From the NCBI GenBank assembly GCA_020632265.1, contig JACKFW010000001.1, forward strand, positions 855,272 to 919,271: 64,000 bases of DNA, given 5' to 3'. Both the position numbers and the translations under genes were made by a program. Below, in pieces: positions 1 through 47,685 of this stretch (positions within the stretch are counted from its first letter, which is position 1; each line of letters begins with the position of its first letter). The notes under the pieces are model-generated. The model searched no databases and was not told where the DNA came from. It saw nothing but the letters and a program-made list of their open reading frames with translations. The DNA comes from Pseudomonadales bacterium (GTDB lineage: Bacteria > Patescibacteriota > Microgenomatia > UBA1400 > PJMF01).

Positions 1-126
1 CTAGATTTAGATAATATGAGAGCACCTAATGATATAAAAGTTTTTCTTCAAGAAGTGTTCCTTCAGGAACAAGCTATTACACGTTTTAACTTACTTATGG
101 ACAAGGTTAGACAAGTCTTCCAATAA
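1..126 (+). CDS. 3' end of an upstream hypothetical gene (partial; enters from the left edge of the window)
   Basis: Frame 1 is open from position 1 to TAA at 124-126 (...NMRAPNDIKVFLQEVFLQEQAITRFNLLMDKVRQVFQ*). No start codon in the window. Same strand as the downstream cassette-like genes. Confidence 0.3.
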   Translation, partial: LDLDNMRAPNDIKVFLQEVFLQEQAITRFNLLMDKVRQVFQ

Positions 127-235
127 ATATTATTTAATTCCTGCAGGTTTGCGACATAATCGAATTTTATTGGAATTCTCTGATATAAGTATGCTTAAAG
201 ATTTTGTGTAACAAAAATACTTTTAATTCACATCT

Positions 236-403
236 ATGTCAGATCATTTTTCCTGGGAGATATACAAAAACGATATGGTTGGAATTGTACCTTTAGGCTA
301 TGTGTATGCTTCAACGTACAGGATTGGTAATATTCATCTAAAAAATAATTATGGACATGGAGTAGCAGAAGCTGATGTATTTATGGCAACTCCAAATTTA
401 TAA
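236..403 (+). CDS. small hypothetical ORF (55 aa) inside the first cassette-like unit
   Basis: ATG at 236 and an in-frame ATG at 275, TAA at 401-403. The stop abuts the first copy of the conserved repeat. No recognisable motif; below the size cutoff of the ORF track. Confidence 0.15.
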   Translation: MSDHFSWEIYKNDMVGIVPLGYVYASTYRIGNIHLKNNYGHGVAEADVFMATPNL

Positions 404-406
404 ATT

Positions 407-433
407 AGGTTCCAACATCCCTCACTAGTCCCC
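407..433 (+). repeat. copy 1 of the conserved intergenic repeat (AGGTTCCAACATCCCTCACTAGTCCCC)
   Basis: Direct comparison with the copies at 1307, 2435, 3347/3403 and 4939. It lies immediately after the stop of the small ORF and about 70 bp upstream of the AadA-like gene. Confidence 0.8.
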
Positions 434-505
434 ACGACATCCTATAGTAGTCAAATATTTTTCGATAGATCATCCGCTTGATATGTTATTTGCTATACTC
501 AAAGT

Positions 506-1279
506 ATGAGAGTTACAAAATATTCAGATATTAATAAAATACTTTCACTTTTAAAAGAGGGTTTGGGCGAAATTCTTGGAAAAAATCTTATTGGTTTGTA
601 TTTAACAGGCTCTCTAACTTATGGTGACTTTGATCGTGGTAGCAGCGATATTGATTTTTTTTCAGTTTTAGATGAAGAATTATCTCCAAAACAGCTTGAG
701 AAAGTAAAGAAACTTCACACCGACATTGGTGAACGATTCCCAGAGTGGCACAAGCGCATTGAGGGGTCTTATGTTACTCAAAAAATGCTGGATAGTACAA
801 AGCCACCTAAACGGCATCGACCATATATAAATGCTGGCAAAATGTGGAGTTTTCCATTTGGGAATGAATGGTTGTTGAATTTACATATATTATATGAGAG
901 TGGAGTGGCCTTGGTTGGAATAAATCCGAAACAACTTATAAGTCCAGTTGATATTATCTCGCTGAGAAAAGCATCTCAAGAAAATTTAATTCAAGAATGG
1001 AAACCAAAATTAACCAATCCAGCACCTTTTCAATCTGCTGATTATGATCGCAATCACCTTCAAGCTTATGCAATTTTAACAATGTGCCGCATTCTTTATA
1101 CTGCTAATAATAAAGATGTTGTTTCAAAAAAGGTTGCCGCTAATTGGGCGGTAAAAATGTATGGTGAGCAATGGAGTGCATTAATTAAAAAGGCTCAGAG
1201 CTGGCATCATGGTGAAAAACTTTTTCTAGAAAATGGAATAAAAAAGTTTATCCAATTTACCATAGATGAGGTGGGATAG
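506..1279 (+). CDS. aminoglycoside nucleotidyltransferase, ANT(3'')/ANT(9) AadA-like (nucleotidyltransferase domain plus a DUF4111-like C-terminal domain)
   Basis: N-terminal pol-beta-type NTase motif LYLTGSLTYGDFDRGSSDIDFFSVL matches AadA LYGSAVDGGLKPHSDIDLLV. Further AadA-like blocks GVALVGINPKQL and KKVAANWAVKMYGEQW (AadA: VALVGPAAEELF; KDVAADWAMERLPAQY). Length 257 aa. Confidence 0.7.
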   Translation: MRVTKYSDINKILSLLKEGLGEILGKNLIGLYLTGSLTYGDFDRGSSDIDFFSVLDEELSPKQLEKVKKLHTDIGERFPEWHKRIEGSYVTQKMLDSTKPPKRHRPYINAGKMWSFPFGNEWLLNLHILYESGVALVGINPKQLISPVDIISLRKASQENLIQEWKPKLTNPAPFQSADYDRNHLQAYAILTMCRILYTANNKDVVSKKVAANWAVKMYGEQWSALIKKAQSWHHGEKLFLENGIKKFIQFTIDEVG

Positions 1280-1306
1280 AGGAAAGTAACTAGGTTATAC
1301 AGAATA

Positions 1307-1375
1307 AGGTTCCAACATCTTTCACCAGTCCCTGGCAATCACCAACTTTTAACTATAAATCAACCTAAATTAAAT
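1307..1375 (+). repeat. copy 2 of the conserved repeat (core AGGTTCCAACATCTTTCACCAGTCCCT plus the extended block CAATCACCAACTTTTAACTATAAATCAACCTAAA)
   Basis: Core 26-mer shared with all copies. The ~40 nt extension is near-identical to copy 3. Confidence 0.8.
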
Positions 1376-1424
1376 ATGATCGAACATCGTCTACTAGTCT
1401 CTTTTTGTCTGATAGAATAATAAT

Positions 1425-1847
1425 ATGAAAAAATCCGTAGTGACTGGAATTTTAGTAAAAAAAGATAATAATGTTCTCCTCGTAAAAAAACCAGATAATG
1501 TAGGTCCATATGCTGGGACATATTTAACTCCTGGTGGAGGGGTAAATACTGGAGAAGCAATCGATGAAGCAGTATTGCGCGAATTGTATGAAGAGACGGG
1601 TGTAAAAGTTTCAAATCTCAAAAGAGTTTCTTTTGATGATGCAGTTACTGAAAATTGGAAAGGTGATGAAACTCACTATATTATGTTATTGTATGCTGCT
1701 GACTATTTATCAGGAGATCTTCAATCTACAGAGGGTGATGATGACAATCTAGAAGTTATTAAATGGTTTTCAGAAGATGAGATAAAAGGAATAAAATTAT
1801 CACCTCCTTTGAAAAAGTTTTTATTAAAGCTTGGTTATAAATTATAG
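1425..1847 (+). CDS. NUDIX hydrolase
   Basis: Nudix box GGGVNTGEAIDEAVLRELYEETGV (GX5EX7REUXEEXGU). Confidence 0.8.
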   Translation: MKKSVVTGILVKKDNNVLLVKKPDNVGPYAGTYLTPGGGVNTGEAIDEAVLRELYEETGVKVSNLKRVSFDDAVTENWKGDETHYIMLLYAADYLSGDLQSTEGDDDNLEVIKWFSEDEIKGIKLSPPLKKFLLKLGYKL

Positions 1848-1857
1848 GTATTAAATT

Positions 1858-2436
1858 ATGGATAAATACTCCAGAGTAGCTAATTTAGTAAAAGAAGTTT
1901 ACGAGAACTCAGAACAATGGTTTGGTCAATGGATGTGGAAACATCATGTTCCAGTTGTGGCAAAAAAAACTGAAGAGCTGTCTGAAAGATTTGGAGCTAA
2001 TCTTGACATAGCTGTGGCGGGAGCTTGGCTCCACGACTTTGGCGATGCTTTTGTTCATCGTAATTCTAAAGAACATCCTTTGGTTACTGAAGAGAAATCC
2101 AAGAAAGTGCTTGAGAAAGCAGGATACAGTACTGAAGAAATCAAAAAAGTACTTGAAGAAGTAATCGCTCCACACTCTTGTAGAGATGATTTTATCCCCA
2201 CTACTATTGAAGGTAAAGTAATGGCTTCAGCAGATGCTTTAGCACACTTTATGACAGATTTTTTTGTTCATTTTACTTGGATGCATCTTCCAGAAAATAA
2301 AACATTTGAAGAATATAGAGATTGGGTTGCAAAGAAAATTGATCACGATTTTCATAAAAAGATATTTTTTGATGAAGTGAGAGAAGAAGTTAGAGACAGA
2401 GTAGCTACGCTAAAAGAAGTATTTGGAGAAAAATAG
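1858..2436 (+). CDS. HD-domain phosphohydrolase
   Basis: H...HD motif (WLHDFGD) and downstream His and Asp residues. Starts 10 bp after the NUDIX gene, so likely co-transcribed with it. TAG stop overlaps the start of repeat copy 3. Confidence 0.6.
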   Translation: MDKYSRVANLVKEVYENSEQWFGQWMWKHHVPVVAKKTEELSERFGANLDIAVAGAWLHDFGDAFVHRNSKEHPLVTEEKSKKVLEKAGYSTEEIKKVLEEVIAPHSCRDDFIPTTIEGKVMASADALAHFMTDFFVHFTWMHLPENKTFEEYRDWVAKKIDHDFHKKIFFDEVREEVRDRVATLKEVFGEK

Positions 2437-2500
2437 GTTCTAACTTCCTTCACCAGTCCTTACAAATCACCAACTTTTACCTATAAATAAATCTAAACAA
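2435..2500 (+). repeat. copy 3 of the conserved repeat (AGGTTCTAACTTCCTTCACCAGTCCTT plus extension AAATCACCAACTTTTACCTATAAATAAATCTAAA)
   Basis: Shares both the core and the extension with copy 2. Confidence 0.8.
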
Positions 2501-2738
2501 CCACAATCACAAAATAATTCATTCGGCACTTAAAATACCGCCTGCGAAATTCCACGCCAACTATTTAGAAACGGTGTGCGAAAAAAGGGGTGCTTGACAG
2601 ATCATATATTCCTAAGAAACCACTTTTACATACAAAGCAACCTTCTGAGATCAGGCTTTATTACAATGCTGGTTAAATCCTGAAATAACATAAAAGACTT
2701 TAGAATAGTTTTTATATAATGTGTGATAATATGTTTCT

Positions 2739-3335
2739 ATGATATTTGAAGTTGGAGACATGAATGAAAAATTAATTGGTAAGTTTGAATTTGCAACAGG
2801 TAATGTTCCTGTGTTGACGCGAGCTCGTCTTATGGCGCAAGTTTTAACTGCAAATATGCAAGATAACGTAGCACAGGCTGTTCAAGCAAGTAGCAAGCTT
2901 ATCAAAGAAGATTTAGATAGGGCTAGTGAAATTCTCAAATATACTGATCCATATAAATTTTTTTCATGGATAGCATTAAACTTGGGAAAAGGTGACCCAA
3001 ATTGTGGCAATTGGATGACATGGTCAATTTTGGTTTTTTTTGGTAATGAAGAACAATTTATTAGGTCATTTGAATATTTAAGACCTATATTAGATAAATA
3101 CAATCCAAACATAGAACCAGTTCATCCAGACTTGCAGTCAATTTTAAATTCTACTGATTATACTGAGCACTTTACCGCAAGAAGAATCCCAAAAGTTCAG
3201 TTCAACGAAAATGAATTATGTTTCGAGCTTGAATGGCCAGGATTAAAAATTGACCTTGTTGGTAACGTCCCAAAAAAAGTTTATTTATCTGATAAAGATA
3301 AAGACACATTTATTTCTTTACAAGAAATCCAGTGA
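2739..3335 (+). CDS. hypothetical protein (198 aa)
   Basis: Intact ORF between two repeat copies. No recognisable motif. Confidence 0.4.
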   Translation: MIFEVGDMNEKLIGKFEFATGNVPVLTRARLMAQVLTANMQDNVAQAVQASSKLIKEDLDRASEILKYTDPYKFFSWIALNLGKGDPNCGNWMTWSILVFFGNEEQFIRSFEYLRPILDKYNPNIEPVHPDLQSILNSTDYTEHFTARRIPKVQFNENELCFELEWPGLKIDLVGNVPKKVYLSDKDKDTFISLQEIQ

Positions 3336-3346
3336 GTTTCAAAATT

Positions 3347-3417
3347 TTCCACTAGTCCCCGGAAATTTTTAAAATATAATCATAGACCAATCTAAATTAG
3401 CTAGGTTCGAACATCCC
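3347..3417 (+). repeat. copy 4 of the conserved repeat, with its two halves swapped and separated by a ~42 bp insert
   Basis: Half B (TTCCACTAGTCCCC) at 3347-3360 comes before half A (AGGTTCGAACATCCC) at 3403-3417. This is the reverse of the order in copies 1-3. Confidence 0.7.
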
Positions 3418-3451
3418 GTACTTGTCTCATTTTACTTGGTATAATTGAGAT

Positions 3452-4300
3452 ATGAAAAAATCAGAACAAAAAAAAGGCACAGACTATATAGGCGTAGGTG
3501 TTGGAGCACTCATTTTTAATGATGAGGGTTTATTATTACTTGCTCTTAGAGGAAAAAAGGCAAAAAACGAACGAGGTAAGTGGGAAATACCTGGCGGCGG
3601 TGTTGAATTTGGCGAAACTATTGAAGAAGCATTGAAGCGAGAAATCAAAGAAGAATTGGATATTGAAATTGAAGTGACAAAAATGCTCCAACTTTGCGAT
3701 CATATTATTGCCGATGAAAAACAACATTGGATTTCACCAACTTATATTTGCAAGAAAGTAAGTGGTGAGCCAAAAATATTGGAGCCAGAAAAGTGTGATC
3801 GCATTGGTTGGTTTAGCATTGAAGAGGCTGAGAAATTACCACTTTCTATTGTTACAAAACATGATATTTCTGTTTTGAAAAAAAGAGATCATCAAGAAAA
3901 TATCGGATGTGCTGTGATAGTTAAAAACAATCAAGATCAAGTTCTTTTAGGTAAAAGAAAAAATGCTTATAGATATGGTTTATATGGACTTCCAGGTGGT
4001 AGAATTGATAAAGACGAAAAAGTTTTGGTTGCTTCCAAAAGAGAGTTGTTGGAAGAAACTGGACTGAAAGCTAGCAATATGAAATATATTGGTGTCGTCA
4101 AAGAATGGCAAGATAGCTATAACTTCATTCACTTTATTCATCTGTGCACAGAGTGGAGAGGTGAGTTGGAGCTTATGGAGCCTGACAAATGTGAAGATTG
4201 GAAGTGGTTCGACTTAGACAATTTGCCTCAGGATATTTTGCCAGGACATTTGCAAGGTATTAAGCTGTTGCAAGATGGAATTGGAATAAGTGATATTTGA
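3452..4300 (+). CDS. tandem-NUDIX hydrolase (two Nudix domains)
   Basis: Two Nudix boxes: GGGVEFGETIEEALKREIKEELDI and PGGRIDKDEKVLVASKRELLEETGL. Confidence 0.75.
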   Translation: MKKSEQKKGTDYIGVGVGALIFNDEGLLLLALRGKKAKNERGKWEIPGGGVEFGETIEEALKREIKEELDIEIEVTKMLQLCDHIIADEKQHWISPTYICKKVSGEPKILEPEKCDRIGWFSIEEAEKLPLSIVTKHDISVLKKRDHQENIGCAVIVKNNQDQVLLGKRKNAYRYGLYGLPGGRIDKDEKVLVASKRELLEETGLKASNMKYIGVVKEWQDSYNFIHFIHLCTEWRGELELMEPDKCEDWKWFDLDNLPQDILPGHLQGIKLLQDGIGISDI

Positions 4301-4312
4301 GATAATTATTAT

Positions 4313-4825
4313 ATGACACAAAGATTATTCGATGAGTTTAACGTTTATCATTCTGAAAATGGTATTGGTCATTTTAGTGGCACCGGCGAGGTAATGGCCA
4401 AATTGTTGCAAGATTTCGAACCCGATAAAAAAACTCTTCAAGGACCAACTTTATCTCTCTATGCCGGAGAAGTTGGAGCAGAAAGGCTATTTGTGACTAT
4501 ATTACAGATTAGAAACAAGAAAATATTGGCAGTTGATCATAATCCACACTTGGTAAGTAAGGATGAAATGACAGATTATTTATTAGGATCAGTCACTGAT
4601 GTAATAGGTAAAATTGAAGCGAATAGTATAGGAATTATTACGATCTTCGGATCCGACGGATCGGTAAATAATGATGATTGGAAAATCATATGGCAAGAAG
4701 CACATAGAGTGTTAAAACCAAATGGACATTTAGTGATTTTTCCCACTGATAATATTTTAACTGTTCCGAGGGGTTTTTCTGTTTTGATTCAAGGTACAAA
4801 TTTCTTAATAGTTAAAAAATTATAA
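4313..4825 (+). CDS. hypothetical protein, possibly a degenerate SAM-methyltransferase fold
   Basis: Motif AHRVLKPNGHLVIF resembles the post-II/III motif of class I methyltransferases. Motif I is not clearly present. Confidence 0.3.
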   Translation: MTQRLFDEFNVYHSENGIGHFSGTGEVMAKLLQDFEPDKKTLQGPTLSLYAGEVGAERLFVTILQIRNKKILAVDHNPHLVSKDEMTDYLLGSVTDVIGKIEANSIGIITIFGSDGSVNNDDWKIIWQEAHRVLKPNGHLVIFPTDNILTVPRGFSVLIQGTNFLIVKKL

Positions 4826-4938
4826 GACTAAAAACTCTCCAAAATCGATTAAAAAATAGCTTCCAATTGTCTATGGCTTTTCTATGATTAATATAACATA
4901 TCAGTTTTTTGGGTAGTTTGGATATTGATACTAAAATA

Positions 4939-4960
4939 AGTTTGAACATCCTTCACTAGT
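4939..4960 (+). repeat. copy 5 of the conserved repeat (AGTTTGAACATCCTTCACTAGT)
   Basis: Degenerate copy that closes the same-strand gene block. The next gene is on the opposite strand. Confidence 0.65.
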
Positions 4961-4989
4961 ATGTTGCTAACATTCTTGAATTATGAAAT

Positions 4990-5664
4990 TTATTTATCTA
5001 AAACAATTCTTGAACCTGAAAAATTGGCAGTTTCGCTACTGCTAGACCTGATTTGAAGAGAGTAGGTGTTATTTCCAGGGTGAAGCTTAAACTTTGGAGA
5101 AGTTTTCCAAGTAGTATTGCTTGAAGAATGAGCAACTTCGGTAATTGCCATGATTGAACCGGTAGTTTTGTTTACTAATCTTGCTGAGGCTTCACCGCTC
5201 ACAATTGAAATTCCTACCTCAAAAACTGCATTAATATATGATGGATAATCATTGCTATCCAAATTGACTTCAACACCAGAGTCAGTCCAAACATTGTTAT
5301 TTGTGCTGGCAGATCCAATATAAATGCTTTGTTTTTGAAATATTTGATTAGCGGAAGTGTTAATTTTAGAATTTAATACTGTATTTTCTAACTCATCTAA
5401 CCTTTTCATAATTCCAGAGACACTTGTTTCAAGAAAGATAATTTTACTATTCAGATTTTTTATTTGAGCAGATAACGAGGCTTGGTTTTGATCAGAGAGG
5501 TTATTTATTATGTTTCCATTTTCGATCAAGATACTAGAATTGCTTTTGGCGCCGTTGATGTTTTCAAGTGAATTATTATTTTGAAATTGTAGAAAAAAAA
5601 GCATTACAATGCAAACAAACATGATAAACAATGACAATACAACAACTTTTCCAAATTTAGACAT
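4990..5664 (-). CDS. hypothetical membrane-anchored protein (N-terminal TM, N/Q-rich coiled region, C-terminal domain)
   Basis: Hydrophobic N-terminus VVVLSLFIMFVCIVMLFFL followed by low-complexity N/S/Q-rich stretches. Confidence 0.45.
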   Translation of the reverse strand: MSKFGKVVVLSLFIMFVCIVMLFFLQFQNNNSLENINGAKSNSSILIENGNIINNLSDQNQASLSAQIKNLNSKIIFLETSVSGIMKRLDELENTVLNSKINTSANQIFQKQSIYIGSASTNNNVWTDSGVEVNLDSNDYPSYINAVFEVGISIVSGEASARLVNKTTGSIMAITEVAHSSSNTTWKTSPKFKLHPGNNTYSLQIRSSSSETANFSGSRIVLDK

Positions 5665-5791
5665 TGGATATATTATAGTAAGAATACAGGTTGGTTAGCA
5701 AACGAGATATACAGTTGGGTTAGCAAAAATGAAAAATTTTTTATAGATATTATCTTATTTTTTTACTAACCGTTATTGTTTCTCCAAAAAT

Positions 5792-11193: not shown

Positions 11194-11270
11194 AAGTATT
11201 CCTAATAATATCAGAAATTTGAGTATTCCAACCTATTGTAAATTACTGCTATAATTATTATAATCAAAAT

Positions 11271-16219: not shown

Positions 16220-17440
16220 ATGAAAATTGAAGCCGGACTTAAAAATACTAGTAAAAACTTTACTCTTGAAGATAAAAAATTTGTACTATCATTATTACAA
16301 GTTGAAGGAGTGGGGAGAAAAACTGCAAAAAGAATTATTTTTTTCCTAATTAAACACGAAATGATTTTTAGTTCATTTTGGGTAAATAAAAAAAACATTT
16401 GGCAGAAATGCTATCTTTCAGAAAAATCTATAAAAAGCACTAAAAGTGTTTATAGAGAGCAAAAAAACTGTTCAATATACGATCGATTAATTAAGCAAAA
16501 TATTCGGGTAATAGCATTTTGGGAAAATGAATATCCAATACTACTTAAACATTGTGATGATTTTCCACTAATTTTATTTTTAAAGGGAAATATTAGCTGC
16601 TTGCAAAACGAGTCAATTGCTGTGGTAGGTACGAGAAGAATGACAGAATATGGAATCATGGCTACAAAAAAAATTGTCGAAGAATTAGTTTTAGAGGGGT
16701 TTGCAATTGTTTCTGGGTTTATGTATGGAATAGATTTATGTGCACACCTGGAAACTATTAACAATAATGGACTGACCGTTGCAGTTTTAGGATTTGGTTT
16801 TGATCATATGTACCCCAGAGGAAATCGAAAATATTTTGACCAAATTATTAACCACTCGGGTTGTTTTATAACTGAGTATTTACCAGAAGTTGGGCCAAAT
16901 GTAGGTAATTTTCCTAATAGAAATAGAATTGTAGCTGGCTTATGTAAAGGAGTTATTGTTGTAGAAGCTGGAATTAAGAGTGGCAGTCACATTACAGCAG
17001 AATGTGCGCTTAATGAGGGGAGGGAAGTTTTTGCAGTTCCTGGGCCCATTAACAATCCATTTTCTGAAGGAACTAAGTGGCTAATTAATCAAGGTGCTAT
17101 TATGATTACGTCTGGATATGATGTAGTTTCTCAGTTAAGAGAAAATGCTAGAGGAAATAGGCAGATAAGTAATCAGGGAACAAGTGTTAATGAAGTAAGC
17201 AAGATAAATATAAATAATCAAAAGGTAAGTCAGATAGAAAGGTATTATGTAAATAATGAGGTTGTATTGAGTCAAATTCAGAAATTTATTATTGCAGAAC
17301 TACAAGCAGGAGCAAAATCATTTGATTATTTTACAGAAAAAATTAACAGTAAAACATCAAAGATTATTCAAGAAGTTACATTGTTAGAAATCAATGATAT
17401 CGTTACTGTTGAAGGTAATACTTTGAGTTTAAAATTATGA
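16220..17440 (+). CDS. dprA: DNA-processing protein DprA/Smf
   Basis: N-terminal SAM-like HhH region (VEGVGRKTAKRI) and Rossmann-like DprA core (VVGTRRMTEYG...VVEAGIKSGSHITAECALNEGREVFAVPGPI). Confidence 0.75.
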   Translation: MKIEAGLKNTSKNFTLEDKKFVLSLLQVEGVGRKTAKRIIFFLIKHEMIFSSFWVNKKNIWQKCYLSEKSIKSTKSVYREQKNCSIYDRLIKQNIRVIAFWENEYPILLKHCDDFPLILFLKGNISCLQNESIAVVGTRRMTEYGIMATKKIVEELVLEGFAIVSGFMYGIDLCAHLETINNNGLTVAVLGFGFDHMYPRGNRKYFDQIINHSGCFITEYLPEVGPNVGNFPNRNRIVAGLCKGVIVVEAGIKSGSHITAECALNEGREVFAVPGPINNPFSEGTKWLINQGAIMITSGYDVVSQLRENARGNRQISNQGTSVNEVSKININNQKVSQIERYYVNNEVVLSQIQKFIIAELQAGAKSFDYFTEKINSKTSKIIQEVTLLEINDIVTVEGNTLSLKL

Positions 17441-35112: not shown

Positions 35113-35278
35113 TAATTTTTTAGACTTTAGATAATTTATCTGATATAATATTCTTTCTAAGACCGTTTTTTTGAGTGATTTTTTTCAAATTTCAAAATAA
35201 TGATAGATGGGAAGGGTGAAAGCACATAGCAAATGTGCTCACTTTTATTGGTAAAATTAATTTGTTCTAGAAAAGTAT

Positions 35279-38435: not shown

Positions 38436-38525
38436 GTTTTGAAGCCTATACTTTGACGCTTAAACTTCGATACCGTTTATACCTCACCTGCTGATTTTAA
38501 ATAAACCTGGTAAAATACAGATCAT

Positions 38526-43986: not shown

Positions 43987-44490
43987 AAGAGAAATATTGT
44001 ATCACAAATATTGATCAATTATAGAGTAAAAAGTATTATTTTAATGAAGTAATTGACCACATAATTAATTAAGGTAGGATTAACATAGGTATTATTAACA
44101 GAAAGGCATAAATATAAAAATAAAAAGTATGAGCGTGTGGCCCTAATTTGAGAGATATAATTTAGATTTTTCATCAGAATCTTATCAAGAAGGGAGACGA
44201 GGAAGGGGGATGTTTGTTTTGAAGATTTTCTTTAAGATAAACGATCGAACCGAGGTAAAATATTGATAATAAATATTAGCGCATAACTATTTATTAACAA
44301 ATAAATTAATTATTAACGCATAATTCACGAATTATTAACGCAACCTCGAGTATCTACGGAGACCCTCTGGGCATTTGATAGTCCAATTAACATTTTTTGT
44401 TAATGCAAAATAGTAATATTTTGAGCAGAGCAATTAATGACATCATGAATTTTCATAAATTCGAGTGAATTATAAAAACAAGGAGTTATT

Positions 44491-47560: not shown

Positions 47561-47685
47561 CAGAAAGCAATTATATCAGGAATAAGATTTAATTAAATTA
47601 ATTAATGTATTTTAATTTTTGAAATATTATGGTTTTTATGAAGAATGAGTTCGGGATCAATCGCAGAAATTCACAAAGGAGACTT

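What the first reader, a model, noticed from the sequence alone, without database searches (positions are those of the whole stretch)
1..4975. Cassette-like array: same-strand accessory genes each bounded by a conserved 26-70 bp repeat
Five copies of AGGTTCCAACATCCYTCACYAGTCCC sit at 407, 1307, 2435, 3347/3403 and 4939. Copies 2 and 3 also share about 40 more bp (CAATCACCAACTTTTAMCTATAAAT..CTAAA).

Every copy lies within a few bp of a gene's stop codon, and the HD gene's TAG stop overlaps the first bases of copy 3. The copies partition the region into units of one or two promoter-less-looking small genes: a 55-aa ORF; the AadA-like ANT gene; the NUDIX + HD pair; a hypothetical; and the tandem-NUDIX + hypothetical pair.

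Copy 4 is a composite. Its two half-sites are in swapped order around a ~42-bp insert, which is how a recombination junction between two sites would look. All units are on the + strand. The array stops where the first minus-strand core gene begins, and it starts at the window edge, so it probably continues upstream.

The architecture (repeat-delimited, orientation-uniform, AadA/NUDIX cargo) is that of an integron gene-cassette array. However, the repeat does not fit the canonical attC R''(RYYYAAC)/R'(GTTRRRY) consensus, and no recombinase is visible in the window. This could be a divergent integron or an undescribed site-specific cassette system in a CPR-like genome.
Basis: partly seen in the sequence, partly recalled or inferred. 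Interest (0 to 1): 0.8.

Follow-up and report, generated by a model that had tools for sequence, protein, structure and literature searches.

The report
Serine-integrase cassette array at tRNA-Trp
The repeats are real and mark the far half of a roughly 10-kb row of small gene units stacked behind a tRNA-Trp gene in a candidate-phyla-radiation (CPR) bacterium; each unit ends in a 35-bp attachment-site scar of the type left by large serine integrases, so it behaves like a gene-cassette platform but is not an integron.

Summary
The motif occurs only at window 402-4960, always on the + strand. An identical contig (L002) carries more copies for 5.3 kb upstream and begins in the 3' end of a tRNA-Trp gene.

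The same 35-nt block (AAATAGGTTCnAACATCCTTCACTAGTCCCTGCAA) forms co-oriented arrays directly after tRNA-Trp(CCA) in many Patescibacteria assemblies. Cassette sets differ between species, and shared cassettes end at the repeats.

It is not an integron:
- neither strand forms a hairpin;
- the attC core sites are absent;
- no IntI was found.

The repeat is a copy of the tRNA-Trp 3' end with exactly 5 extra bp between GTTCRA and CTGC (17 nt against 12 nt). That is the known offset between attP and attB half-sites of large serine recombinases (LSRs).

In 4 of 4 related genomes examined, a 513-521-aa LSR gene abuts tRNA-Trp and its 5.8-7.9-kb element ends in a repeat copy.

Best reading: a tandem accretion array of integrase-less, att-bounded mini-islands, comparable to Dehalococcoides ssrA islands or pseudo-SCC elements. 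The window holds the older, decayed, tRNA-distal part. No recombinase is in the window and current mobility is untested. I class it as a new variant of a known kind.

The parts
1..126 (+). 3' end of a 504-aa cassette ORF of unknown function; the full gene is L002 3933-5447
   Evidence: no Pfam or NCBIfam match
236..403 (+). 55-aa ORF; a C-terminal remnant of a 285-aa cassette gene that is intact in other arrays
   Evidence: L002 5522-5753 matches L009 3407-3640 at 82% nt identity, i.e. the C-terminus of the 285-aa ORF plus its repeat
402..436 (+). Repeat copy 1 (P-type att half-site). Its core is mutated: CCCCACG in place of CCCTGCA
   Evidence: (39.9 bits)
491..499 (+). Extended -10-like box TGCTATACT, ending 6 nt before the ANT start codon
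   Evidence: inferred promoter, since the generic scan shows no enrichment
506..1279 (+). Cassette gene: nucleotidyltransferase with an AadA_C domain (257 aa)
   Evidence: PF13427 at 2.1e-13, PF01909
1302..1336 (+). Repeat copy 2
   Evidence: (41.4 bits)
1337..1401 (+). Vestigial, gene-less cassette: about 35 nt of a conserved cassette 5' region, then a degenerate second repeat at 1372-1401
   Evidence: (D1, D2). In L009 the same 5' region is followed by a 103-aa ORF before the equivalent degenerate repeat
1410..1418 (+). Extended -10-like box TGATAGAAT, ending 6 nt before the NUDIX start codon
   Evidence: sequence; inferred
1425..1847 (+). Cassette gene: NUDIX hydrolase (140 aa)
1858..2436 (+). 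Cassette gene: HD-domain protein (192 aa). Together with its downstream repeat it recurs in L016 behind a different upstream partner
   Evidence: (77% nt identity to L016 6352-5738)
2430..2464 (+). Repeat copy 3; it contains the HD stop codon and its core is mutated (CCTTACA)
   Evidence: (42.3 bits)
2739..3335 (+). Cassette gene: hypothetical protein (198 aa)
   Evidence: no family match
3330..3364 (+). Degenerate repeat (copy 4a)
   Evidence: 11.5 bits
3399..3428 (+). Degenerate second repeat (copy 4b), 69 nt after copy 4a; the same layout as 1302/1372
   Evidence: D2: 127 nt, 71% identity; 12.3 bits
3437..3445 (+). Extended -10-like box TGGTATAAT, ending 6 nt before the start codon
   Evidence: inferred
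3452..4300 (+). Cassette gene: tandem NUDIX protein (282 aa)
4313..4825 (+). Cassette gene: methyltransferase-like protein (170 aa)
   Evidence: PF08241 at 3.2e-5
4934..4960 (+). Last repeat copy. It is truncated after CACTAGT and marks the distal end of the array
   Evidence: (18.9 bits)
4990..5664 (-). Conserved flanking gene (224 aa, hypothetical). Homologues also lie near the arrays in L006 and L007; in L007 one lies just beyond the distal end
   Evidence: 50-53% aa identity

Best explanation
Window 1-4975 is the tRNA-distal, older half of a roughly 10-kb tandem array of small integrase-less gene units, stacked downstream of the tRNA-Trp(CCA) gene of a Microgenomates-type CPR bacterium.

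**What the repeat is.** Each unit ends in a 35-bp site. That site is the element-side (P-type) half of a large-serine-recombinase attachment site, joined to the short crossover core it shares with the tRNA 3' end (CCTGCA). The tRNA-Trp T-arm and acceptor end form the host-side (B-type) half-site.

**How the array forms (inferred).**
1. 6-8-kb elements carrying a large serine recombinase (LSR) integrate at tRNA-Trp.
2. They can excise alone or together with neighbouring att-bounded units (accretion-mobilisation).
3. Passenger cassettes are left behind with boundaries exactly at the crossover.
4. Repetition builds a co-oriented array with the newest units nearest the tRNA.

**Cargo.** Cassettes carry accessory functions: a nucleotidyltransferase, NUDIX, HD and methyltransferase proteins here, and RelB/ParE-like pairs and Fic proteins elsewhere. 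They probably have their own promoters.

**State of the window's copies.** Their crossover cores are mutated, so these units are probably now fixed.

**Shown versus inferred.**
- Shown: the array anatomy, the tRNA anchor, cassette sharing with repeat-defined boundaries, the 5-bp offset, and the LSR elements bounded by tRNA-Trp and a repeat.
- Inferred: that the LSR acts on these sites, the position of the crossover, and trans- or co-mobilisation of the cassettes.
For: **Localisation and anchor.**
- Copies are confined to one locus and one strand.
- The array continues to a tRNA-Trp 3' end in the identical contig L002.
- Arrays sit directly downstream of tRNA-Trp on the same strand in L005, L007, L010, L014, L015, L020, L027, L029 and L031.

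**Array statistics (17 non-redundant arrays).**
- All repeats within an array are co-oriented.
- 77 of 86 ORFs are co-oriented with the repeats.
- Median repeat spacing is 786 bp.

**The site.** The conserved block is 35 nt long with sharp edges.

**Cassettes behave as units.**
- Cassettes shared between genomes end at the repeats and sit at different array positions.
- The tRNA 3' end and a repeat are interchangeable as the left boundary of the same cassette: the L005/L014 tRNA flank matches sequence after L011 repeats, and the L002 tRNA flank matches sequence after the L009 repeat at 2651.

**Match to LSR attachment-site geometry.**
- The repeat equals the tRNA-Trp 3' end plus 5 inserted nt (alignment score 32 against 11.5 +/- 2.3 for shuffles).
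- GTTCRA-to-CTGC spacing is 12 nt in 11 of 11 distinct tRNA-Trp genes and 17 nt in 56 of the 59 repeats in which it could be measured.
- In LSRs the zinc-ribbon-domain motif is shifted 5 bp between attB and attP, and the attP half-site is 25 bp (PMC3783163).

**A recombinase in the right place.**
- In 4 of 4 genomes examined, an LSR gene abuts tRNA-Trp, reads into it antisense, and its element ends in a repeat copy: L036, L045, L046, L048.
- L045 has the same flank synteny as the window (Wzy_C, def, fmt, L28, M50).
- The catalytic residues Y10, R12 and S14 are invariant in the LSR family.
Against: - No LSR, or any other recombinase, was found in the window, in L002, or in any multi-cassette array.
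- The right half of the site (the start of each cassette) is not conserved, and the reconstructed attP shows no significant dyad symmetry. The crossover position is therefore inferred only from where homology breaks.
- Canonical LSRs do not integrate into attL- or attP-type sites, so array growth needs the accretion route or a permissive enzyme.
- No presence/absence polymorphism of cassettes was seen among near-identical strains: the window matches L001-L003, L009 matches L023 and L028, and L015 matches L027 and L031.
- The repeat variant on the LSR elements differs from the array consensus at about 5 of 29 positions.
- The motif and the LSR family are both absent from the viral contig collection.
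Confidence: 0.7

Rival explanations
1. Fossil scars only. The repeats are attR remnants of past integrations by serine-integrase elements whose modules decayed. The units are now fixed chromosomal genes, and no cassette moves as such.
For: - The crossover cores of all five window copies are mutated.
- Repeat scores fall towards the distal end of the array.
- No strain-level polymorphism was seen.
- No LSR lies in multi-cassette arrays.
Against: - Homologous cassettes at 77-92% nt identity occur in different species, at different array positions, with both ends exactly at the repeats.
- The left boundaries sit within a few nt of the core. Random decay of integration modules would not give such boundaries.
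- The 35-nt block is far better conserved than its flanks across species whose core DNA is only 65-75% identical.
Confidence: 0.17
2. Exchange by homologous recombination. The repeats serve mainly as short portable homology. Cassettes would then be swapped after DNA uptake by RecA-type recombination between repeats, as in the minimal mobile elements of Neisseria, with no dedicated recombinase.
For: - The window encodes DprA (16220-17440; PF02481).
- The arrays lack recombinases.
- The repeats are about 35 nt of near-identity.
Against: - This does not explain why the block keeps a tRNA-derived sequence with a precise 5-bp offset.
- It does not explain why LSR elements end in the same block.
- 35 nt is marginal for efficient RecA exchange (own knowledge).
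- Conservation stops sharply at the core rather than tapering.
Confidence: 0.08
3. A divergent integron or CALIN. The repeats would be attC-like sites recombined as folded single strands by an IntI-type tyrosine recombinase encoded elsewhere.
For: The architecture resembles an integron: 1-2 co-oriented genes per unit, the site at the 3' end of each unit, and toxin-antitoxin cassettes in other arrays.
Against: - Neither strand forms a hairpin; folding z-scores are +0.5 to +1.6, i.e. less structure than shuffles.
- The paired copies are direct repeats, not inverted.
- The RYYYAAC/GTTRRRY core sites are absent.
- No Phage_integrase domain was found in the arrays or in the window ORFs tested.
- The array starts at a tRNA gene, not at an attI site next to intI.
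Confidence: 0.02
4. An RNA-level or REP-like element. The block would be a 3'-UTR signal (terminator, processing site or tRNA-like tag), or a dispersed intergenic repeat.
For: The block sits at gene 3' ends, often includes the stop codon (26 of 67 repeats), and resembles a tRNA 3' end.
Against: - It has no secondary structure.
- It gives no Rfam match even at a permissive threshold.
- No terminator-like sites lie at the copies.
- It is absent from the other 59 kb of the window.
- The acceptor 5' strand needed for a tRNA-like minihelix is missing.
Confidence: 0.03

Closest known systems
Dehalococcoides ssrA genomic islands (McMurdie et al. 2011, PMC3146451)
   Same: - Multiple tandem islands lie downstream of a single t(m)RNA gene.
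- Each island is bounded by a direct repeat of the gene's 3' end, plus an adjacent conserved motif that does not match the gene.
- The integrase is a large serine recombinase (CcrB-like) placed next to attL.
- About half of the islands lack an integration module and were proposed to be cis-mobilisable by accretion.
   Different: - The target here is tRNA-Trp in CPR bacteria.
- Units are 0.2-4.4 kb (median about 0.8 kb), usually one or two genes, against multi-gene islands.
- None of the roughly 50 units in multi-cassette arrays carries an integrase.
- The conserved site is a 35-bp P-type half-site rather than a 20-bp repeat.
SCCmec, pseudo-SCC and composite SCC arrays at rlmH (orfX) in staphylococci (own knowledge)
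   Same: Large serine recombinases (CcrAB/CcrC) integrate elements at the 3' end of a conserved gene. Tandem arrays are delimited by short direct repeats, and ccr-less pseudo-SCC units can be mobilised in trans.
   Different: SCC units are 10-60 kb and target a protein-coding gene. No single-gene cassettes or conserved 35-bp site arrays are described. Membership was not tested here.
Cis-mobilisable elements (CIMEs) and accretion-mobilisation in streptococcal ICEs (cited in PMC3146451; ICEberg 2.0, PMC6323972, came up in the search but was not read)
   Same: Units are flanked by functional att sites but encode no recombination genes. They would move together with a neighbouring integrase-bearing element that shares the same site.
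   Different: Known CIMEs are decayed ICEs that use tyrosine integrases, and typically only one or two occur per site, not arrays of 5-10 mini-cassettes.
Tycheposons and tRNA-anchored islands of Prochlorococcus (Hackl et al., bioRxiv 10.1101/2020.12.28.424599)
   Same: Flexible-gene islands lie next to specific tRNA genes. Repeated integration pushes older elements further from the tRNA, and partial-tRNA repeats are scattered through the island.
   Different: There the repeats are faithful partial tRNAs. The elements carry integrase and replication modules and several kb of cargo. No uniform single-gene cassette array is described.
Integron cassette arrays and CALINs
   Same: At the functional level: a co-oriented row of small cassettes, each with a recombination site at its 3' end; a shared short core between the platform site and the cassette site; toxin-antitoxin cassettes; and greater decay with distance from the platform site in this array.
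   Different: There is no IntI, no folded attC, no R''/R' core sites, the anchor is a tRNA gene, a serine recombinase is associated, and cassettes probably carry their own promoters.

Membership tests
Integron / attC cassette array | attC site: imperfect inverted repeats (R''-L'' / L'-R') that fold into a hairpin on the bottom strand | tested here: not met
   DNA folding of the consensus and of three window copies on both strands gave minimum free energies from 0 to -4 kcal/mol and z-scores from +0.5 to +1.6 against shuffles. Paired copies are direct repeats.
Integron / attC cassette array | Core sites RYYYAAC and GTTRRRY at the ends of the site | tested here: not met
   The consensus AAATAGGTTCnAACATCCTTCACTAGTCCCTGCAA contains no inverted core pair.
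Integron / attC cassette array | An IntI tyrosine recombinase with attI and Pc next to the first cassette | tested here: not met
   Arrays start at tRNA-Trp. The neighbouring gene in L005, L010 and L029 (a family with 947 homologues) is a conserved hypothetical protein of roughly 435-455 aa with only a weak DUF6938 match. No Phage_integrase domain appears in the arrays or in the window ORFs tested.
Integron / attC cassette array | Cassettes mostly lack a promoter | tested here: inconclusive
   Extended -10-like boxes end 6-8 nt before three cassette start codons, and TTGACA...TAnAAT boxes follow the repeats of toxin-antitoxin cassettes. The generic promoter scan is not enriched.
Tandem t(m)RNA-anchored integrative islands / CIME-type accretion arrays | The array begins at the 3' end of a tRNA or tmRNA gene and is co-oriented with it | tested here: met
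   tRNA-Trp(CCA) lies immediately upstream of arrays in nine loci. L002, identical to the window, starts with the last 18 nt of tRNA-Trp.
Tandem t(m)RNA-anchored integrative islands / CIME-type accretion arrays | Units are bounded by direct repeats derived from the 3' end of the target gene | tested here: met
   The repeat aligns to the tRNA-Trp 3' end with 24 of 25 matches plus 5 inserted nt. The tRNA end and the repeat are interchangeable left boundaries of the same cassette.
Tandem t(m)RNA-anchored integrative islands / CIME-type accretion arrays | A site-specific recombinase gene lies next to the target gene in at least some occupants | tested here: met
   A 513-521-aa LSR abuts tRNA-Trp in L036, L045, L046 and L048, and each element ends in a repeat copy. 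This is not met in the window's own locus.
Tandem t(m)RNA-anchored integrative islands / CIME-type accretion arrays | Demonstrated excision or integration (circular forms, empty sites) | not testable with these tools
   No read-level data are available. Assemblies of the same strains show no polymorphism.
Large serine recombinase attachment sites | P-type half-site of about 25 bp and B-type half-site of about 20 bp, sharing a motif shifted by 5 bp | tested here: met
   GTTCRA-to-CTGC spacing is 12 nt in 11 of 11 tRNA-Trp genes and 17 nt in 56 of 59 measurable repeats. If the crossover is the TG of CCTGCA, GG lies 25 bp from it in the repeat. The reference geometry comes from PMC3783163.
Large serine recombinase attachment sites | Pseudo-palindromic attP with a central crossover dinucleotide | tested here: inconclusive
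   Reconstructed attP sites (the repeat plus the LSR-side flank) give 7-8 of 20 symmetric matches at several axes. The right half is not conserved in cassettes.
REP/BIME-like dispersed repeats or intrinsic terminators | Genome-wide dispersal; palindromic or GC-rich stem plus a T-run | tested here: not met
   There are no copies in window 5000-64000, no stem, and no terminator-like hit at any copy. Other genomes were sampled only around hits.

The most novel reading that the evidence does not exclude
Microgenomates-type CPR bacteria may possess an integron-like gene-capture platform built on serine-integrase chemistry. In this reading, single-gene, promoter-bearing cassettes that carry only a 25-bp P-type half-site plus the core are captured, stacked and exchanged between species at the tRNA-Trp gene. 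A family of tRNA-targeting large serine recombinases would act in trans, or as shuttles that take neighbouring cassettes along. That would be a second, independently evolved cassette system, and a natural example of LSRs acting on half-degenerate sites.
Probability: 0.35. Interest if true: 0.78.

Novelty: new variant of a known kind. Interest (0 to 1): 0.62.

Why it matters
CPR bacteria have tiny genomes and few recognised mobile elements, so how they acquire accessory genes is poorly understood.

- **A recurrent hotspot.** The same sequence-defined site behind tRNA-Trp holds toxin-antitoxin pairs, Fic, NUDIX, HD and nucleotidyltransferase genes, and cassettes are shared across species. This gives a concrete, searchable locus for studying gene flux in these uncultivated lineages.
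- **Directly testable sites.** The 35-bp site and its 5-bp offset from the tRNA give predicted attP and attB pairs for a large, untapped family of serine integrases. At least 580 relatives were found, and subfamilies can be read off from antisense-tRNA tails such as ..FWR.. for tRNA-Trp and ..LQR.. for tRNA-Gln. Such enzymes are in demand as genome-engineering tools.
- **A new route to cassette arrays.** If cassettes that carry only one good half-site are really mobilised, integron-like arrays can arise from serine-recombinase systems.

Tried and rejected
- **Rfam.** Gathering thresholds on the window and 11 loci gave only tRNAs, and a permissive scan of L009 gave nothing at the repeats.
- **ssDNA folding.** Neither strand folds.
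- **An apparent upstream extension.** The conserved sequence CCTCCCAACTCGAGGAAAAATAG before several copies looked like a tRNA anticodon arm. It is the coding C-terminus (..SQLEEK*) of a small cassette ORF family, with third-codon-position variation.
- **The gene next to tRNA-Trp as a candidate 'IntI'.** The divergent gene of roughly 435-455 aa has only a weak DUF6938 match, no NCBIfam hit and no relative in the Protein Data Bank. It is a highly conserved core gene with 947 homologues at about 55-65% identity.
- **Viral contigs.** Neither the motif nor the LSR family is present.
- **Dyad symmetry of the reconstructed attP.** Not significant.
- **Cassette polymorphism between assemblies of the same strain.** None found. 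The short HD-only contigs are just fragments of the same context.
- **A pseudo-tRNA-Gln repeat at the far end of the tRNA-Gln LSR element in L047.** Not found within 10 kb.
- **Recombinase search in the window.** Ten ORFs of integrase-like size plus precomputed Pfam annotation for about 20 kb were checked and no recombinase was found, but not every ORF was scanned.
- **Base composition.** The array is 33.9% GC, no different from the rest of the window.

Full report
**1. The observation**

None is expected in 100 dinucleotide-preserving shuffles.

A profile built from five good copies also recovers 4934-4960, 3336-3366, 3402-3425 and 1372-1401. It finds nothing credible in the remaining 59 kb. 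All copies are on the + strand.

The repeat finder shows that 'copy 4' is not two swapped half-sites. The stretch 1309-1435 and the stretch 3336-3462 are one 127-nt layout (71% identity): a repeat, about 35 nt, then a second degenerate repeat 69 nt after the first, then an extended -10-like box and an ATG.

The stop codon lies inside the repeat block for three units. It is 22 nt upstream of the repeat for the ANT gene and 108 nt upstream for the last gene.

**2. The array is twice as long and starts at tRNA-Trp**

A Logan contig (L002) found through the 55-aa ORF is 100% identical to the window over 10,403 nt and extends 5,321 nt upstream.

- It carries two more strong copies, at L002 990-1035 and 3004-3048, and more + strand genes, including another NUDIX.
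- Its first bases, GATTCCCTCTGGCCCTGC, are identical to the last 18 nt of tRNA-Trp(CCA) genes of related genomes. The contig ends there, so the full gene could not be seen.
- The window's 55-aa ORF is the C-terminal remnant of a 285-aa cassette gene that is intact in L009 (82% nt identity).

**3. The same site forms arrays behind tRNA-Trp in many CPR genomes**

One scan each of the species-representative genomes and of JGI metagenomes, using AGGTTNNAACATCNNTNNCYAGTCCC, returned 13 + 13 stretches. By record title, those from the genome collection are mostly Patescibacteria (Pacebacteria, Woesebacteria).

- The profile finds 113 copies, 85 of them non-redundant.
- The conserved block is 35 nt, AAATAGGTTCnAACATCCTTCACTAGTCCCTGCAA, and information content drops sharply on both sides.
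- In L005, L007, L010, L014, L015, L020, L027, L029 and L031 a tRNA-Trp(CCA) gene lies immediately upstream on the same strand.
- Across 17 non-redundant arrays, all repeats within an array are co-oriented, 77 of 86 ORFs are co-oriented with them, and the median spacing is 786 bp (range 222-4395).
- 26 of 67 repeats contain the stop codon of the upstream ORF.

Cargo includes:
- an AadA_C-type nucleotidyltransferase;
- several NUDIX proteins;
- HD and methyltransferase-like proteins;
- RelB/ParE-like pairs;
- Fic proteins;
- YCII and DUF1905 proteins;
- an alpha-amylase.

The array's GC content equals that of the rest of the window.

**4. Cassettes behave as discrete units bounded by the repeats**

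DNA comparisons between loci give homology blocks that run from repeat to repeat:
- L007 2820-3469 with L009 4271-3611, 85% identity;
- L009 3605-4271 with L010 4879-5544, 89% identity;
- L007 3435-4102 with L015 1646-976, 79% identity.

The same toxin-antitoxin cassette is the fourth after the tRNA in L010 and the last in L007.

The window's HD gene plus its repeat recurs in L016 (77% nt identity), but behind a RelB/ParE pair instead of a NUDIX gene.

The distal flank is conserved. Homologues of the window's 224-aa minus-strand gene (50-53% aa identity) also lie near the arrays in L006 and L007, and in L007 the homologue sits just beyond the distal end of the array. L045 has the window's Wzy_C, def, fmt, L28, M50 synteny on one side and tRNA-Trp on the other.

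The left boundary of a cassette can be either a repeat or the tRNA itself:
- The terminator-containing sequence that follows tRNA-Trp in L005 and L014 follows two repeats in L011.
- The sequence after the tRNA end in L002 follows a repeat in L009.
- In both cases homology starts at CCCTGCAA.

This places the exchange point in or next to that shared core.

**5. It is not an integron and not an RNA or REP element**

- Neither strand of the consensus or of the window copies folds. Minimum free energies range from 0 to -4 kcal/mol, which is less structure than shuffled sequences.
- The paired copies are direct repeats, and the attC core sites are absent.
- Rfam gives nothing, and no terminator-like site coincides with a copy.
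- No tyrosine recombinase is present in the arrays or among the window ORFs checked.
- The generic promoter scan is uninformative in this AT-rich DNA (21 sites found against 21.5 expected).
- Extended -10-like boxes end 6-8 nt before the start codons of ANT, NUDIX and the tandem-NUDIX gene. The same arrangement precedes many core genes of the window. The cassettes therefore probably have their own promoters; this is inferred, not shown.

**6. What the repeat is**

Aligned to tRNA-Trp, the repeat is the T-loop, T-stem and acceptor 3' end with five extra nucleotides:

- repeat: GGTTCGAACATCCTTCACTAGTCCCTGCAA
- L020 tRNA: GGTTCGA--ATCCTTCCC--G-CCCTGCAA

The alignment scores 32, against 11.5 +/- 2.3 for shuffles.

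The spacing between GTTCRA and CTGC is 12 nt in 11 of 11 distinct tRNA-Trp genes. It is 17 nt in 56 of the 59 repeats in which it could be measured.

For large serine recombinases, Rutherford et al. (PMC3783163) showed two things. The attP half-site spans 25 bp, and the zinc-ribbon-domain motif sits 5 bp closer to the centre in attB than in attP. If the crossover is the TG of CCTGCA, the repeat runs exactly 25 bp from GG to the centre and the tRNA arm runs 20 bp. The repeat therefore has the geometry of a P-type half-site and the tRNA that of the matching B-type half-site.

**7. A recombinase in the right place**

The conserved gene of roughly 435-455 aa next to tRNA-Trp is not a recombinase. 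Its contigs nevertheless led to a Pacebacteria genome (L035-L044) with a telling arrangement:

- tRNA-Trp is followed directly by a convergent 515-aa large serine recombinase (Resolvase, Recombinase and Zn_ribbon_recom domains).
- The last ~20 codons of that gene are the antisense of the tRNA (..QDRRDSNPHELFWRQSCYH).
- Its 7.6-kb element (LexA/S24-like, HTH_3 and other genes) ends in a repeat copy, AGTAAGTTCCAACATATTCAACTAGTCCCTGCAAA.
- A 153-aa cassette and another repeat follow.

The family has at least 580 members in CPR lineages. Many have antisense-tRNA tails. Tails containing ..FWR.. mark tRNA-Trp, and tails containing ..LQR.. mark tRNA-Gln. The latter was verified for P0126.

All four tRNA-Trp-type members whose loci I fetched show the same layout, tRNA-Trp | LSR element of 5.8-7.9 kb | repeat: L036, L045, L046 and L048. 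The four elements share a module: the LSR, two small ORFs, an ORF of about 200 aa, HTH_3 and LexA-like genes. The catalytic residues Y10, R12 and S14 are invariant.

No LSR homologue occurs in the window, in L002 or in the multi-cassette arrays.

**8. Mechanism**

Shown:
- a tRNA-anchored array;
- units with repeat-defined ends that are shared between species;
- LSR-type site geometry;
- LSR elements occupying the tRNA-proximal slot and ending in the same site.

Inferred sequence of events:
1. LSR elements integrate at tRNA-Trp by attP x attB recombination.
2. Every downstream repeat is an attR-like site (P arm, core, then whatever follows). Excision can therefore use the element's own repeat or a more distal one, carrying neighbouring units along.
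3. After integration elsewhere, excision of the LSR element alone leaves the passengers behind, joined to the tRNA exactly at the core.
4. Repetition builds an array with the newest units nearest the tRNA.

This is the accretion/cis-mobilisable-element logic proposed for Dehalococcoides ssrA islands, and it needs only canonical LSR reactions.

In the window itself the cores are mutated (CCCCACG, CCCTGGC, CCTTACA, CCCCGGA, and one truncated), whereas the two tRNA-proximal copies in L002 keep CCCTGCAA. The window therefore holds the older, probably immobilised part of the array.

Weak points:
- The right half of the site is not conserved.
- Dyad symmetry is not detectable.
- No strain-level polymorphism was seen.
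- No LSR could be tied to the window's own genome.

**9. Comparison and novelty**

The closest described systems are listed below.

| System | Source |
|---|---|
| Dehalococcoides ssrA islands | PMC3146451 |
| SCCmec / pseudo-SCC arrays | own knowledge |
| CIMEs | cited in PMC3146451 |
| Prochlorococcus tycheposon islands | bioRxiv 10.1101/2020.12.28.424599 |

Full-text searches found no paper linking CPR or Patescibacteria with cassette arrays at tRNA genes.

What is new:
- the scale, mostly one- or two-gene units with 3-8 strong repeat copies (about 2-7 repeat-bounded units) in each 8-15-kb stretch examined;
- the complete absence of integration modules from the stacked units;
- the strongly conserved 35-bp P-type half-site;
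- the lineage.

I rate it a new variant of a known kind. It resembles an integron in function, and membership in the integron family is tested and rejected.

Noticed in passing
L036 6835-8382; proteins P0121-P0240: Many members of a CPR large-serine-recombinase family have C-terminal tails that are antisense translations of the tRNA gene they abut (..RDSNP..). Tails containing ..FWR.. mark tRNA-Trp and tails containing ..LQR..SYH mark tRNA-Gln, so the target tRNA can be read from the protein sequence. JGI gene calls omit the ORF where it overlaps the tRNA.
   Followed up: partly
L047 1-11548 (GCA_002305675.1, DBQA01000006.1): Behind the tRNA-Gln-type LSR lies a defence-rich island: a type I restriction-modification system (HsdR/S/M), a CBASS-like pair (CD-NTase plus Cap15) and a tyrosine integrase. 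Its distal att site was not found within 10 kb.
   Followed up: partly
L005 2883-4193, L010 1734-3101, L029 275-1633, L045 11661-12968: A highly conserved hypothetical protein of roughly 435-455 aa lies next to tRNA-Trp, between the tRNA-Thr/Tyr/Thr cluster and tRNA-Trp, where tuf often sits in other bacteria (own knowledge). It has 947 homologues at about 55-65% identity and only a weak DUF6938 match. Its function is unknown.
   Followed up: partly
window 491-499, 3437-3445, 11247-11255, 35249-35257, 38508-38516, 43996-44004(-), 47570-47578(-): Extended -10-like boxes (TGnTAnAAT) commonly end about 6 to 20 nt upstream of start codons, with no obvious Shine-Dalgarno sequence in between. This suggests frequent leaderless or short-leader mRNAs in this organism. 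The total count is not above chance.
   Followed up: no
L004, L008, L013; proteins P0033, P0103: Contigs and proteins that carry this CPR-type array, or the CPR-specific ~440-aa gene, are labelled Gammaproteobacteria or Pseudomonadales in their records. This is probably mis-binning or mislabelling of the assemblies.
   Followed up: no
window 5684-5727: Two tandem 19-nt direct repeats (ATACAGGTTGGTTAGCAAA and ATACAGTTGGGTTAGCAAA, 25 nt apart) lie just upstream of the start of the 224-aa flanking gene. Their meaning is unknown.
   Followed up: no
window 2465-2738: A 270-nt non-coding stretch lies between repeat copy 3 and the 198-aa ORF. It appears richer in G+C by eye (not measured) and contains a TTGACA box at about 2594. 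It is unusually long for this array.
   Followed up: no
L041 464-1456; L020 2943-3911: An IS30-like transposase (HTH_38 plus a faint rve match), 79% identical between two genomes, lies at or near the distal end of the tRNA-Trp arrays.
   Followed up: no
L030 4095-5858: A RecQ helicase gene lies on the opposite strand between two repeats, inside an otherwise co-oriented array. It is unclear whether it is a cassette or a core gene that splits two arrays.
   Followed up: no
L046 452-1024; L016 5769-6344; window 1858-2436: The same HD-domain gene family (61-78% aa identity) recurs in the tRNA-Trp variable region of three different genomes, each time behind a different upstream gene (TfoX_N, ParE-like, NUDIX) with no repeat in between. 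It looks like a cassette repeatedly fused to its neighbour.
   Followed up: partly
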